Shown: one piece after another, positions 54,001-57,000 of the stretch
How the letters are laid out: each line of letters starts with the position of its first letter
Position numbering within the stretch: the stretch's first letter is position 1
Source of the DNA: Escherichia coli
Lineage (GTDB): Bacteria; Pseudomonadota; Gammaproteobacteria; Enterobacterales; Enterobacteriaceae
Strand: one strand, 5' to 3'
Assembly (NCBI RefSeq): GCF_024298765.1
Contig: NZ_CP101211.1
Length of the DNA stretch: 64,000 bases
Made by a program: the position numbers

Positions 54001-57000
54001 TATCGGCAACCATCACATCTGATTTGCCCGGGATCGGTTTTTTCCCGTTTTCAGATGCAAGGACCGCAGAGGAGGTAAAGGCGACAGACAGAGTTGCACA
54101 TAACAGAAGGTATTTTAATTTCATGACTCACTCCATGATTATCAATGATGGTTGCTCAGACACATCATTTATACCATGCCTGTCACCGAATACGAGATCC
54201 CCATATTTTGGCTTTAAATATTATCCAATAGGGTTTCATACACCTGGCTTCTGAAAGCAAGGTTCAAGGAGCTTCAGGGGGAAATCAGATTGTTGTCGAC
54301 CCAGTACTTGTGCAAACCTACCACCCAATTCCTGGAAATGGACGAAAGTTCATGCGCCAGTTCACGACAGCATTCAGGCGTAAAAATACGTATGGGTCCT
54401 GAAGTACCGATATCAACAGACATGATAAACTCCAGAATGTTGCCATGGCATAGGTTGTTTCTCAGCCTGACAATTTCTGCTTCAGGTGTTCTCCCGGCTG
54501 CTACCTTAACCAACATATCCTGCTCGGCTGGAAATGAAAGTAATTCTACCGGCACCCCTTCCTGCTTGGCCTTTCTCAGTAAGGCATTACTCATTACGGA
54601 GATACCCTCCAAGTCCACCAGCTCAGGAGCTGCATGCTGATCGTTAACTGTTGGTTTCAGCATCAGCGACTTCAACGTAACCATGAGTGATGTTTCAATC
54701 CCGTTCAGGAAGCTCGTACAGGCCGGTATCCATAGTTCGTGATGCAACGCCTCGGTTGCTTGTTTAAAGAACCAGTCAATCACGGGGACAGTGTGATAAT
54801 CATAATAGTGATTTATCTCGCTGAATCTTGACATATAAGCATCGTACTCAGCCTGGTCTTCAGGAGATAAAAAATTTGGTGGGAGGGGCATCAGAATCCT
54901 TTCATCCTAGCTTGTATACCTTCTTCGTAGGCCAGCTCGCCATTATCGGTAAAAGATGGTTTTTGGTGTTTGTGACAAAGCTTAATTTTTCGTCAGGCTC
55001 GATAGCGTTACCGGAGAGATTTGATCTTTTCTCTGTAACTCGCAATACTGTTTATACATACAGTATGAGAATTCGAGTGTAGCTATGTCTGTTATCCTTG
55101 AGCACATTAGCAACAAGCCTTACGAAATGGCACCTTTTTTCAGTGATTTACTGAGCTGTGGAGTGATGAGTCCGTGCGCCGGGCATGAAGATAATGAATT
55201 AAATTTGCATGAATATGTAGTCCGTAACCGCCCCTCAACCTTCTTTGTCAGGGCGGCGGGCCTCAGTATGATCAATGCCGGTATCAATGATGGCGCTATT
55301 CTGGTTGTGGATCGGTCTTTAACGGCACGACACGGCTCTATCGTCGTTGCGCTGGTGGATGGAGAGTTCACGGTAAAGATCTTACACACGTATCCTGAGC
55401 TGCTTTTGATGCCTTCTAATCCAGCCTATAAGCCGATACGTGTAAATCCCGAATCCCTTGAGATATGGGGCGTCGTCACCTTTGCACTGAATCAGTTTAG
55501 CCATGTACATGCACGTTGATATTAACGGGGCCTATGCGGCATTTGAGTGTGCGATGGATCCCAAGCTGGCAAAAAAGCCGCTCATCATAGCCAGCAATAA
55601 CGATTCGTCCGTCATTGCAATGAATAAACTGGCTAAAAGCGTTGGTATTAAGCGTGGGACCCCAATTTTTAAGTGCAGGGATTTGATTCAGCAACACCAG
55701 ATCGAAGTCCGGAGCTCTAACTTTACTTTGTATGAAGACTACTCAAATCGCTTCCATGAAACGCTGGAAAGCTTCGCGCCTCAATCGAGTCGATATAGCA
55801 TAGATGAAAATTTCATGTTATTGAAAAACATGAACAAGATAATAGATTATGAAGATTACGGCCGGTTGATCAGAAGTACACTTCTTCATAATCTGTCCCT
55901 TACCTGTGGTGTGGGGTGTTCAAGCACCAAAACCCTGGCTAAATTATGCACCTATGCGAGCAAACGATGGGCAGCTACAGGCGGGGTTGTAGTTTTGACT
56001 GATCAGGCCAGGATCAGGAAGCTCCTGGGCCTTATCAGTACCAGAGAAATATGGGGTATTGGTCAAAAGATCAGTGAACGCCTGTCGGCTTTCGGGATCA
56101 TCACTGCCGGTGATTTTTATAATAGCGACGTTCGCTTTTTACGTAAAAGCTTTGGCGTTGAAATCGAGCGTACCTGGCGGGAACTGCATGGCGAACCATG
56201 TTTCCGGCTGCATGAATCCCCTCCTGTCCGGCAACAGATTATCGTTTCCAGAAGTTTTGGTCAGCGCCTTAATGAGATAGGCAAGCTACATGAGGCAGTT
56301 TCATTTTTTACCGCCCGGGCGGCAGAGCAGCTGCGCAAGGATGGCTCGTGGACCCGTCAAATCACAGTCTTCATTCAGAGCAGCAATTATGCGCAAGGTG
56401 AAAACCGCTACAGCAATTGTGGTATCGAGCCGCTTACCGCTACACAGGACACCCGCGATCTGGTTGATGCAGCCATGACCATCCTGAACCGCATTTACAA
56501 ACCCGGGATAGCGTATGCGAAAGCTGGGGTAATGCTCTCCGCTATGACTGACGGCACAGAGCAACTCAGCCTGTTTGATGAGCGCCCGGCCAGGCCTGGC
56601 AGTCAGGCACTGATGAAAGTTATGGACCGGTTCAATAAAGAAAAGCGCGGAGCTCTGTTTTTGCTGGGGGAAGGCATTCAACAGGATTTTCGTATGAAAC
56701 AGGCCATGCTATCACCGAGATATACGACCCGCTGGGATGAATTACTCGTTGTAAAAGCGTAGCGGCCATGACCGGCATGGCCGTACTCATCAAAAGTGAA
56801 AGTAACTTTAGGCCCCGCGAGCTTTTTCGATTGCGCCCTGCAAAGTTGCTGCGTCCATAGCCCCGGGGATAAATGTGGTAGTCGCCGCATTCGGCTTTTT
56901 CATATTCATAATGATGAAGCCGGGTGTGCCGGTGATCCCAAGCGCTTCGCCCAGCTGCATGTTGCCGGAGATCACGTTTTCATATCGGTTTTTTTCCCTG

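What the first reader, a model, noticed from the sequence alone, without database searches (positions are those of the whole stretch)
55046..56762. SOS-regulated error-prone polymerase operon on the resistance plasmid backbone
A near-consensus LexA box (TACTGTTTATACATACAGTA) sits 20 bp upstream of a umuD-like gene that overlaps a umuC-like Y-family polymerase gene. Antibiotic-induced SOS responses (for example from quinolones) would induce a plasmid-borne mutagenic polymerase in the same cell as the resistance genes.
Basis: partly seen in the sequence, partly recalled or inferred. Interest (0 to 1): 0.5.

Follow-up and report, generated by a model that had tools for sequence, protein, structure and literature searches.

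The report
IncHI2 plasmid umuDC-like SOS operon
This is the well-known, already annotated umuDC/mucAB-type "SOS mutagenesis" operon of the IncHI2 resistance-plasmid backbone, intact and preceded by a strong LexA operator. It is real but ordinary. The one unexpected point is that the operator is also an unoccupied landing site for a group II intron that appears to home into LexA boxes.

Summary
TACTGTTTATACATACAGTA (55046-55065) is the only exact TACTGT-N8-ACAGTA in the window. It lies 19 nt upstream of a 144-aa UmuD-like gene (55085-55519), which overlaps a 419-aa UmuC-like gene (55503-56762) by 17 nt. Both proteins pass NCBIfam's curated Pol V cut-offs. They keep every residue I could check: the C25/G26 cleavage site, S61, K98, D6, Y11, D101, E102 and the QLSLF clamp motif. 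Against the syntenic IncHI1 orthologues, dN/dS is 0.05 or less.

The stretch is 100% identical to hundreds of IncHI2 plasmids. There PGAP calls the genes umuD/umuC, and papers call them mucA/mucB. The window's left side is a multidrug-resistance region rich in IS26.

Induction and mutagenesis remain untested for this lineage.

One thing was found in passing. A group II intron present in 4,313 PLSDB plasmids inserts exactly at 55046|55047 in 30 IncHI2 plasmids. In 60 distinct metagenomic flanks its 5' exon reproduces the LexA-box consensus. The window carries the empty site. I found no paper describing this target specificity.

The parts
55021..55026 (+). Putative -35 hexamer TTGATC
   Evidence: It lies inside a 16-nt block (ATTTGATCTTTTCTCT) that is identical between IncHI2 and IncHI1, although synonymous sites of the adjacent genes are saturated. 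A 17-nt spacer separates it from AATACT. It is inferred; the consensus scan did not call it because it scores 8/12, below the tool's 9/12 threshold.
55044..55049 (+). Putative -10 hexamer AATACT (GATACT in IncHI1), overlapping the left arm of the LexA box
   Evidence: Its spacing to TTGATC and its conservation in the IncHI1 orthologous promoter. This is inference, not a mapped transcription start.
55046..55065 (.). LexA operator (SOS box) TACTGTTTATACATACAGTA
   Evidence: It is the unique exact match in the window. It matches 18/20 of the consensus, with perfect half-sites. Its heterology-like score is 1.8-2.5, against 0.9 for E. coli umuDC, 3.3 for sulA and 4.5 for recA on the same matrix (the matrix was built from sites recalled from memory). 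The next best site in the window scores 7.5. The box is identical in both IncHI2 lineages. LexA boxes occupy the same position upstream of umuD in E. coli, IncN mucAB, IncL/M and a Citrobacter plasmid.
55046..55047 (-). Empty homing site of a group II intron, which inserts between T55046 and A55047 on the minus strand
   Evidence: In pKP14052-MCR-1 (L010) a 1,909-nt intron interrupts otherwise identical sequence exactly here. Rfam RF02005 scores 186.6 bits. Thirty PLSDB records carry this intron-IncHI2 umuD junction.
55075..55079 (+). Weak Shine-Dalgarno GAGTG, 5 nt before the ATG
   Evidence: Read directly from the sequence. CGAGTGT is conserved in IncHI1.
55085..55519 (+). umuD/mucA-like gene (144 aa), an S24 self-cleaving accessory subunit
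   Evidence: NF007621 scores 129.8 bits against a cut-off of 110. Pfam Peptidase_S24 has E 2.3e-24. E. coli UmuD structure 8gmt matches at E 1.3e-31. C25-G26, S61 and K98 align with UmuD C24-G25, S60 and K97. dN/dS against IncHI1 is 0.05.
55503..56762 (+). umuC/mucB-like gene (419 aa), a Y-family DNA polymerase catalytic subunit
   Evidence: NF002955 scores 464.7 bits against a cut-off of 431. Pfam finds IMS, IMS_C and DUF4113. D6, Y11, E15, SNND 31-34, D101, E102 and QLSLF 354-358 are invariant or aligned with UmuC and MucB. Against IncHI1, pN is 0.10 and pS is 0.77.
56763..56783 (.). 8-bp GC-rich hairpin (CGGCCATG-ACCGG-CATGGCCG) between the convergent umuC and DsbA-family genes
   Evidence: Fold energy is -18.8 kcal/mol, but the z-score is only -1.55 and no T-run follows. 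This is weak evidence for a terminator.

Best explanation
This is the IncHI2-backbone orthologue of the umuDC/mucAB operon. It is a LexA-repressed two-gene operon encoding a Pol V-type translesion polymerase.

In undamaged cells a host LexA dimer sits on the operator at 55046-55065. The operator overlaps the probable -10 and the transcription start, so it blocks RNA polymerase. DNA damage or replication stalling, including damage caused by quinolones, generates RecA-ssDNA filaments. These trigger LexA self-cleavage and the operon is transcribed. The two genes are probably translationally coupled through their 17-nt overlap.

The UmuD-like dimer then cuts itself at C25/G26, using S61 and K98, on the RecA filament. 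The shortened dimer binds the UmuC-like polymerase, whose active-site carboxylates are D6, D101 and E102 and whose steric gate is Y11. With RecA-ATP and the beta clamp (motif QLSLF), the complex copies past lesions at the price of mutations.

Shown here: the sequence features, family membership, residue conservation, purifying selection, conservation of the promoter and operator, and the plasmid context. Inferred from the characterised E. coli UmuDC and pKM101 MucAB systems: LexA binding, induction, cleavage, and translesion and mutagenic activity.
For: - Operator: it is unique and near-consensus. It is invariant in both IncHI2 lineages: 916 records are at least 95% identical over the 111-nt promoter query, and no differences fall in the box in the sampled divergent lineage.
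- Related promoters: IncHI1 keeps a palindromic LexA-type box (TACTGGTTAAATATCCAGTA) and an identical -35 block, while the rest of the intergenic region cannot be aligned. Other umuD-type operons have LexA boxes at the same place.
- Family membership: both proteins exceed the curated Pol V family cut-offs and have the expected Pfam domains.
- Residues: all checked catalytic, cleavage and clamp residues are conserved.
- Selection: purifying selection is strong. Against IncHI1, pS is 0.71-0.77 and pN about 0.10. Within IncHI2, umuD has 9 synonymous and 0 non-synonymous differences.
- Distribution: the stretch is present in about 945 conjugative IncHI2 plasmids.
- Regulation in a relative: in R27 (IncHI1), mucA/mucB are not part of the temperature/HtdA-controlled transfer regulon, which is consistent with separate control (PMC7366339).
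Against: - I found no experimental data for this lineage.
- The proteins are only 40-49% identical to any characterised Pol V orthologue.
- Position 10 of the polymerase is Ala, where UmuC has Phe and MucB has Met. It lies next to the steric gate, and the consequence is unknown.
- The promoter hexamers are weak (8/12) and were not called by the scan.
- Some natural IncHI2 plasmids tolerate disruption. Thirty records have a group II intron between the promoter and the box, including NC_005211.1. At least one has umuC truncated by IS26. The operon is therefore dispensable for plasmid survival.
- Some plasmid orthologues, such as samAB, are known from the literature to be poorly active (PMC7092418, abstract seen).
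Confidence: 0.8

Rival explanations
1. The operon is LexA-controlled and intact, but its selected role for the plasmid is not mutagenesis of the host. Instead it provides damage tolerance or gap filling for the plasmid itself. Candidate settings are plasmid establishment after conjugative ssDNA entry, or a UmuD2C-type checkpoint or 'stability' function. On this reading mutagenesis is a by-product.
For: A survey of plasmid leading regions states that the role of plasmid umuCD homologues 'remains unclear' and that they often bound anti-defence islands near oriT (PMC11541004). Here the operon lies at the edge of the Tra1 transfer region, which carries traG, trhH, mobI and the MobH relaxase within about 15 kb. 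IncHI2 papers list mucA/B under 'plasmid stabilisation' (PMC4855149).
Against: In R27 the orthologues are not co-regulated with transfer genes. The 'stabilisation' label in PMC4855149 comes with no experiment. All features needed for polymerase activity are conserved, so activity is under selection in any case. The two roles are not mutually exclusive.
Confidence: 0.2
2. The operon is intact in sequence but is effectively silent or weak in its usual hosts, as samAB is in Salmonella. It would then contribute little to mutation supply or resistance evolution.
For: The promoter hexamers are weak and the operator is very tight. The polymerase carries an A10 substitution. Natural variants with the promoter displaced by an intron (30 records) or with umuC truncated persist. 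Plasmid polymerases differ widely in activity (PMC7092418).
Against: dN/dS of 0.05 or less across the IncHI1/IncHI2 split, with saturated synonymous sites, requires long-term selection on the proteins. More than 95% of IncHI2 records keep the uninterrupted promoter and operon.
Confidence: 0.15
3. The palindrome is a chance match or serves another protein, and the operon is not under SOS control.
For: No binding data exist. AT-rich palindromes can also be bound by other factors.
Against: It is the only exact hit in 64 kb. It is the best-scoring site by more than 5 heterology-like units. Its position matches that in five other umuD-type operons. The box and -35 block are conserved where the flanking intergenic DNA is not.
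Confidence: 0.02

Closest known systems
E. coli chromosomal umuDC (DNA polymerase V, UmuD'2C)
   Same: The two-gene order is the same. The LexA box lies 17-19 nt upstream of umuD: TACTGTATATAAAAACAGTA in K-12. Both have a Cys-Gly cleavage site and a Ser/Lys dyad, D6/Y11/D101/E102, the SNND motif, the QLxLF clamp motif and the C-terminal DUF4113.
   Different: Identity is only 40% for UmuD and 48% for UmuC. The genes overlap by 17 nt instead of 1 nt. The polymerase has Ala10 instead of Phe10. The N-terminal arm and C-terminal tail of the UmuD-like protein diverge. The operon is plasmid-borne.
mucAB of IncN plasmid pKM101/R46 (pol RI), and the plasmid umuDC homologues of IncL/M, IncI and IncF/R plasmids
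   Same: These are plasmid-borne, LexA-box-controlled, overlapping gene pairs with the same domains.
   Different: Identity is 47% and 45% to MucA and MucB, and 48% and 44% to the IncL/M pair. MucA has Ala-Gly at the cleavage site where the IncHI2 protein has Cys-Gly. The overlap is 13 nt in those operons. The IncHI clade is roughly equidistant (43-49%) from all of them.
mucA/mucB of IncHI1 plasmids (R27 family)
   Same: These are true orthologues. Synteny is the same: unknown 204/205-aa gene, then umuD, umuC, DsbA-family gene, then a lipoprotein. Identity is 81% and 84% at protein level. The 17-nt overlap and the -35 block are the same.
   Different: The IncHI1 operator carries a symmetric change in both arms (CTGG...CCAG instead of CTGT...ACAG). 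This gives 4 mismatches to the consensus and a weaker predicted LexA site.
Mobile group II introns with defined DNA targets (for example class C introns after terminators, or IS-specific E.c.I introns); probably the intron catalogued as Kl.pn.I5
   Same: This concerns the side observation. Insertion is site-specific and orientation-specific, with no target duplication. The 5' exon is complementary to a candidate EBS1, ACUGUU. PMC3522654 reports Kl.pn.I5 in Klebsiella intergenic regions with conserved IBS.
   Different: The target here is the LexA operator itself. In the paper that discusses Kl.pn.I5 homing sites, my term searches for 'umu', 'palindrom' and 'promoter' returned no hits; LexA and SOS were not among the terms searched there. 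I did not verify that this intron is Kl.pn.I5.

Membership tests
Pol V / UmuDC-MucAB family (UmuD-type subunit) | S24 peptidase fold scoring above the curated family threshold | tested here: met
   NF007621 scores 129.8 bits against a cut-off of 110. Pfam PF00717 has E 2.3e-24. UmuD structures 8gmt and 1umu match at E 1e-31 and 4e-27.
Pol V / UmuDC-MucAB family (UmuD-type subunit) | Ser-Lys catalytic dyad and a Cys/Ala-Gly self-cleavage site about 24-26 residues from the N-terminus | tested here: met
   S61 and K98 fall in invariant columns. C25-G26 aligns with UmuD C24-G25 and MucA A26-G27.
Pol V / UmuDC-MucAB family (UmuC-type subunit) | Y-family polymerase domains scoring above the curated UmuC threshold rather than the DinB/Pol IV thresholds | tested here: met
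   NF002955 scores 464.7 bits against a cut-off of 431. All Pol IV models fall far below their cut-offs, the best being 120.7 against 399. Pfam finds IMS, IMS_C and DUF4113.
Pol V / UmuDC-MucAB family (UmuC-type subunit) | Catalytic carboxylates (D6, D101, E102 in UmuC numbering), steric-gate Tyr11, and the beta-clamp motif QLxLF | tested here: met
   D6, Y11, D101, E102, Q354, L355, L357 and F358 fall in invariant columns of the six-sequence alignment. D and DE align with the active site of solved Pol IV and Dpo4 chains. Position 10 is Ala rather than Phe or Met.
Pol V / UmuDC-MucAB family | Operon layout: the umuD-type gene lies immediately upstream of, and overlaps, the umuC-type gene | tested here: met
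   The overlap is 17 nt. Overlaps of 1-17 nt occur in all five comparison operons.
Pol V / UmuDC-MucAB family | RecA-filament-dependent cleavage of the UmuD-type protein, and RecA/ATP-dependent translesion synthesis and mutagenesis | not testable with these tools
   This needs biochemistry or genetics. I found no published test for the IncHI lineage.
LexA (SOS) regulon of Enterobacteriaceae | A 20-bp operator matching TACTG(TA)5CAGTA with CTG...CAG half-sites | tested here: met
   The match is 18/20 with perfect half-sites. The heterology-like score falls between those of E. coli umuDC and sulA (the matrix was built from recalled sites, so the values are approximate).
LexA (SOS) regulon of Enterobacteriaceae | The operator overlaps or directly follows the promoter of the regulated gene | tested here: inconclusive
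   A conserved TTGATC-17 nt-AATACT arrangement places the -10 on the left arm of the box. However, the hexamers are weak, the scan did not call them, and no transcription start is mapped.
LexA (SOS) regulon of Enterobacteriaceae | LexA binding in vitro or in vivo, and induction by DNA damage | not testable with these tools
IncHI2 plasmid backbone | Identity and synteny with typed IncHI2 plasmids | tested here: met
   Identity is 100% over 2,001 nt to many records typed IncHI2A/MOBH/MPF_F. The flanking DsbA-family, thioredoxin-fold, lytic transglycosylase and HAD genes are present as exact copies in the window.

The most novel reading that the evidence does not exclude
The LexA operator of this operon doubles as a natural homing site for a mobile group II intron whose target is the SOS box itself. 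The window carries the unoccupied site (55046|55047).

The intron is 1,909 nt and encodes a 494-aa reverse transcriptase without a detectable endonuclease domain. It is possibly the intron catalogued as Kl.pn.I5. It inserts antisense to the regulated gene, at the promoter-proximal edge of LexA boxes. Targets include several unrelated umuD-type operons and other LexA-box-bearing loci.

Insertion cuts the promoter away from the operator and gene. This would silence or rewire plasmid SOS genes. It also scatters 1.9 kb of portable homology among plasmids.
Probability: 0.75. Interest if true: 0.6.

Novelty: already known. Interest (0 to 1): 0.25.

Why it matters
Plasmid-borne Pol V-type polymerases under SOS control are a recognised way in which antibiotic stress could raise mutation supply in cells that already carry resistance plasmids. 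IncHI2 is a major vehicle for mcr, ESBL and carbapenemase genes. Confirming that its copy is intact, tightly operated and under strong purifying selection is useful context, but it adds nothing new in kind.

Two gaps stand out. First, I found no functional test of the IncHI-type polymerase, even though it is present in about a thousand sequenced plasmids.

Second, the side observation may matter more. A very abundant Klebsiella-plasmid group II intron appears to target LexA operators. If that is right, a retroelement systematically disconnects SOS-regulated plasmid genes from their promoters. This includes the umuDC operons of the IncL/M plasmid sampled here, of IncF/R plasmids, and of the 274,762-bp Serratia marcescens IncHI2 plasmid NC_005211.1. 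The intron copies also provide recombination substrates between plasmids.

Tried and rejected
- **Promoter and terminator scan.** It did not call the umuD promoter. The hits it gave lie inside the coding sequence and occur at the chance rate, so I disregarded them.
- **Terminator after umuC.** There is a GC hairpin but no T-tract, and the z-score is -1.55. I do not claim it as a terminator.
- **PADLOC and NCBIfam on the neighbouring unknown genes** (205 aa, 118 aa, 203 aa). Nothing was found.
- **PDB sequence search for a UmuC structure.** Only Pol IV, Dpo4, iota and kappa chains were returned. I ran no structure prediction because family membership was already decisive.
- **Genome-contig scan with the 17-mer CCGGTCTCCCGGCGCAC** (reverse complement of the intron 5' end). 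This was a dead end. A 27-mer against metagenome contigs then worked.
- **Literature searches.** I searched for an experimental test of the IncHI mucAB/umuDC operon and for any link between group II introns and LexA boxes. Neither was found in the open-access library. Subscription literature is not covered.
- **'Chance palindrome' and 'decaying pseudogene' readings.** I rejected both on uniqueness, positional conservation and dN/dS.
- **qnrS1.** It is present in the best-matching plasmid but has no exact copy in the window. I therefore do not claim a quinolone-resistance gene in the window.
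Full report
**1. The observation**

The sequence TACTGTTTATACATACAGTA lies at 55046-55065. It is the only exact match to TACTGT-N8-ACAGTA in the 64-kb window. With up to two mismatches there are five hits against 1.09 expected, and none of 100 shuffles reached five. The looser CTGT-N8-ACAG pattern gives five hits against 0.64 expected.

The box differs from the textbook consensus TACTG(TA)5CAGTA (quoted in PMC6590174) only at two spacer positions. Nineteen nucleotides downstream, at 55085, starts a 144-codon ORF ending at 55519. A 419-codon ORF runs from 55503 to 56762, so the two overlap by 17 nt. PGAP uses the second ATG (55509) in one related record, which would make the overlap 11 nt.

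**2. What the genes are**

- The 144-aa protein scores 129.8 bits on NCBIfam NF007621, 'translesion error-prone DNA polymerase V autoproteolytic subunit' (cut-off 110).
- The 419-aa protein scores 464.7 bits on NF002955, 'subunit UmuC' (cut-off 431). All Pol IV models fall far below their cut-offs.
- Pfam gives Peptidase_S24 for the first protein, and IMS, IMS_C and DUF4113 for the second.
- Against the PDB, the small protein matches E. coli UmuD (8gmt, E 1.3e-31; 1umu) ahead of LexA. The large one matches Pol IV, Dpo4 and iota chains, with the catalytic D and DE aligned.

I aligned both proteins with E. coli UmuD/UmuC (taken from MG1655), IncN MucA/MucB, an IncL/M pair, a Citrobacter plasmid pair and the IncHI1 orthologues.

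- The UmuD-like protein has C25-G26 at the cleavage site. Its nucleophile S61 and base K98 fall in invariant columns.
- The polymerase has D6, the steric gate Y11, SNND, D101-E102 and the clamp motif QLSLF in invariant or aligned columns.
- The one notable substitution is Ala at position 10, where UmuC has Phe and MucB has Met.
- Identity to characterised orthologues is 40-49%. The IncHI proteins therefore form their own branch of the family.

**3. Selection**

Between this window (IncHI2) and the syntenic IncHI1 operon, synonymous sites are saturated (pS 0.71-0.77) while pN is about 0.10, giving dN/dS of 0.05 or less. Within IncHI2, umuD shows 9 synonymous and 0 non-synonymous differences, and umuC has a ratio of 0.16. 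The proteins are under long-standing purifying selection, which argues against a decaying remnant.

**4. Promoter and operator**

Only the last 70 nt or so of the intergenic region can be aligned between IncHI1 and IncHI2. Within that stretch, a 16-nt block containing TTGATC (55021-55026) is identical. Seventeen nucleotides further lies AATACT (GATACT in IncHI1), which overlaps the left arm of the box. I read these as the -35 and -10 elements. LexA would then occlude the -10 and the start site, as in other SOS promoters. This is inference: the hexamers total 8/12 and the consensus scan did not report them.

The box is unchanged in the second IncHI2 lineage, which is 96.4% identical over the 111-nt promoter query. 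In IncHI1 the box reads TACTGGTTAAATATCCAGTA. This is a symmetric change in both arms that preserves the palindrome but should weaken binding.

I built a heterology-type score from 21 E. coli operators. I recalled these from memory, so the values are approximate. On that matrix the window's box scores 1.8-2.5. E. coli umuDC scores 0.9, sulA 3.3 and recA 4.5. The next best site in the window scores 7.5. LexA boxes sit at the same position before umuD in E. coli, pKM101-type mucAB, IncL/M and the Citrobacter plasmid.

**5. Context**

The 2-kb stretch is 100% identical to many plasmids and at least 95% identical in 945 records. Nearly all of these are conjugative plasmids of 210-300 kb from Escherichia, Salmonella and Enterobacter, and the sampled ones are typed IncHI2A/MOBH/MPF_F.

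To the right lie backbone genes: a DsbA-family gene, a thioredoxin-fold gene, a lytic transglycosylase and a HAD gene. In the best-matching plasmid these are followed by traG, trhH, mobI and the MobH relaxase.

To the left, after two conserved unknown genes (205 aa and 118 aa; no family hit), an IS26 marks the start of a multidrug-resistance region. Its contents are listed in section 8. 'On the resistance plasmid backbone' is therefore correct.

**6. Is it known?**

Yes. PGAP annotates these exact proteins as umuD and umuC (WP_000111290.1 and WP_042634445.1). IncHI2 papers use mucB as a PCR marker and list mucA/B among 'stabilisation' genes (PMC4855149). For R27 (IncHI1), mucA and mucB are described as UV-protection genes outside the temperature/HtdA transfer regulon (PMC7366339). 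A 2024 survey notes that plasmid umuCD homologues are widespread and that their role is unclear (PMC11541004).

I found no functional test of the IncHI-type enzyme or its operator. The verdict is that the finding is real and correctly interpreted, but already known and ordinary.

**7. Mechanism and rivals**

The best-supported reading is a LexA-repressed Pol V-type operon working as in E. coli umuDC and pKM101 mucAB (confidence about 0.8 for regulation and intactness).

Three rivals remain. The selected function may be damage tolerance or establishment for the plasmid rather than host mutagenesis (about 0.2; not exclusive of the best reading). The operon may be intact but weak or silent in practice (about 0.15). 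The palindrome may be a chance match (about 0.02). Evidence for and against each is given in the structured fields.

**8. Found in passing: a group II intron that targets LexA boxes**

A short promoter query showed plasmids in which the match breaks exactly at 55046|55047.

- **The intron.** In pKP14052-MCR-1 (IncHI2) a 1,909-nt element sits there on the opposite strand. The flanks are otherwise identical and there is no target duplication. Rfam identifies it as a group II intron (RF02005, 186.6 bits). It encodes a 494-aa protein with an RVT_1 domain and no detectable endonuclease domain.
- **Abundance.** The intron occurs in 4,313 PLSDB records, 3,778 of them from Klebsiella.
- **Sampled plasmid sites.** In eight of the nine sampled plasmid sites the junction was read, and in each the intron's 5' end abuts ACTGT-N8-(A/C)CAGT in the same register; one of these boxes is cut short by ISKox3. 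The ninth junction (L135) was not located by my script. The backbones are IncHI2, IncL/M, IncF/R, IncFIB/FII, ColRNAI and IncFIB/HI1B. Where umuD is the neighbour, the intron is always antisense to it.
- **Unbiased test.** I scanned metagenome contigs with a 27-mer that specifies only the intron end. This returned 77 loci with 60 distinct flanks. Of these, 41 match ACTGT-N8-ACAG and 51 match ACTG-N10-CAG. The position-by-position base counts reproduce the LexA consensus across the whole box.
- **Downstream genes.** These include several different UmuD types, a UmuD'-like gene, an hha-like gene and others.
- **RNA recognition.** The intron contains ACUGUU at nt 187-192 and an AU-rich stretch about 25 nt upstream. 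These are candidate EBS1 and EBS2, complementary to the proximal half-site and the spacer.
- **Occupancy in IncHI2.** Thirty PLSDB records carry the intron at the IncHI2 umuD box. One is NC_005211.1 (Serratia marcescens, 274,762 bp), which I believe from memory is R478.
- **Recombination.** One IncF/R plasmid has an IncHI2-type left flank and a different umuD on the right. This suggests recombination between intron copies.
- **Prior knowledge.** Insertion separates the -35/-10 from the box and the operon. A 2012 paper describes Kl.pn.I5 in Klebsiella intergenic regions with conserved IBS. In it, my term searches for 'umu', 'palindrom' and 'promoter' returned no hits; LexA and SOS were not among the terms searched (PMC3522654). 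My searches found no paper linking group II introns to LexA boxes. I did not verify that this intron is Kl.pn.I5.

The window carries the empty site, so this does not change the verdict on the finding. It is the most interesting lead that came out of it.

**Other things noticed**

- Three copies of the integron integrase LexA box (GACTGTACAAAAAAACAGTC) lie at 28334, 38865 and 52079. The last sits 10 nt before an IntI1 ORF truncated by IS26 (see PMC3108266 for SOS control of integrases).
- The left 53 kb holds eleven IS26 transposase copies, blaCTX-M-55, two copies of mph(A)-mrx(A)-mphR(A), arr-2, dfrA14 and a cmlA fragment.
- One IncHI2 plasmid has umuC truncated by IS26.

**9. Scores**

Interest is 0.25. 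The finding is correct, clinically relevant in context, and already annotated and named. Novelty is 'already known'. The most novel reading not excluded is the SOS-box-homing intron, with the window as an empty site: probability about 0.75 that the specificity is real, and interest about 0.6 if it is real and undescribed.

Noticed in passing
window 55046|55047 (empty site); occupied in L010 1092-3000; also L006, L011, L132-L137 and L138-L214: A 1,909-nt group II intron (Rfam RF02005; 494-aa RT-only protein; present in 4,313 PLSDB plasmids, mostly Klebsiella) inserts exactly at the promoter-proximal edge of LexA boxes, antisense to the regulated gene. Eight of the nine sampled plasmid sites (the ninth junction was not located) and 51 of 60 distinct metagenomic flanks have ACTG-N10-CAG at the junction, and the flank profile reproduces the LexA consensus. 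Thirty IncHI2 plasmids, including NC_005211.1, carry it at this very box. I found no paper describing this specificity. It is possibly Kl.pn.I5, which I did not verify.
   Followed up: yes
L011 3047-4956 (pCTXM65_090011, IncFIA/FIB/R): The intron's left flank is the IncHI2 promoter plus the 205-aa and 118-aa genes and IS26. Its right flank is a different, IncF/R-type umuD with its own LexA box. This looks like recombination between intron copies sitting in two different SOS boxes, which moved IncHI2 DNA into another plasmid.
   Followed up: partly
window 28334-28353, 38865-38884, 52079-52098: There are three identical copies of GACTGTACAAAAAAACAGTC, the LexA-type box of the class 1 integron integrase promoter. 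The third lies 10 nt upstream of an IntI1 ORF (52109 onward) that is truncated by IS26. The window therefore holds four SOS operators in all.
   Followed up: partly
window about 9775-53310: The resistance region is extremely rich in IS26, with 11 exact copies of the 705-nt transposase gene. It contains two inverted copies of mph(A)-mrx(A)-mphR(A) (29935-32659 and 46690-49414), blaCTX-M-55 (21621-22496), arr-2 (50917-51369), dfrA14 (51483-51953) and a cmlA fragment (50252-50596). qnrS1, which is present in the closest plasmid, has no exact copy here.
   Followed up: partly
L002 2560-2580 (IncHI1 plasmid p08-4425.1), aligned with window 55046-55065: The IncHI1 orthologous operator is TACTGGTTAAATATCCAGTA. 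Both arms changed symmetrically (CTGT to CTGG, ACAG to CCAG), which keeps the palindrome but predicts weaker LexA binding than in IncHI2.
   Followed up: partly
window 54274-54891 (-) and 53768-54124 (-): Two unknown genes (205 aa and 118 aa, the latter with a signal-peptide-like N-terminus) are transcribed divergently from umuD. They are conserved in synteny in IncHI1 and IncHI2. NCBIfam and PADLOC give no hit.
   Followed up: partly
window 55530-55532 (codon 10 of the umuC-like gene): The IncHI-type polymerases (IncHI1 and IncHI2) have Ala at position 10, next to the steric-gate Tyr11. E. coli UmuC has Phe and MucB has Met. Changes at this position are reported to alter Pol V fidelity (from memory), so the IncHI enzyme may differ in fidelity or sugar selectivity.
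   Followed up: no
L009 2507-3754 (NZ_MW509820.1, IncHI2): In at least one IncHI2 plasmid, umuC is truncated after about 166 codons by IS26. This shows the operon is dispensable for plasmid persistence.
   Followed up: no
window 58226-58241: CTGTGCCGTCAGACAG matches CTGT-N8-ACAG, but its spacer is GC-rich and it lies inside the 203-aa ORF. It is most likely a chance match.
   Followed up: no
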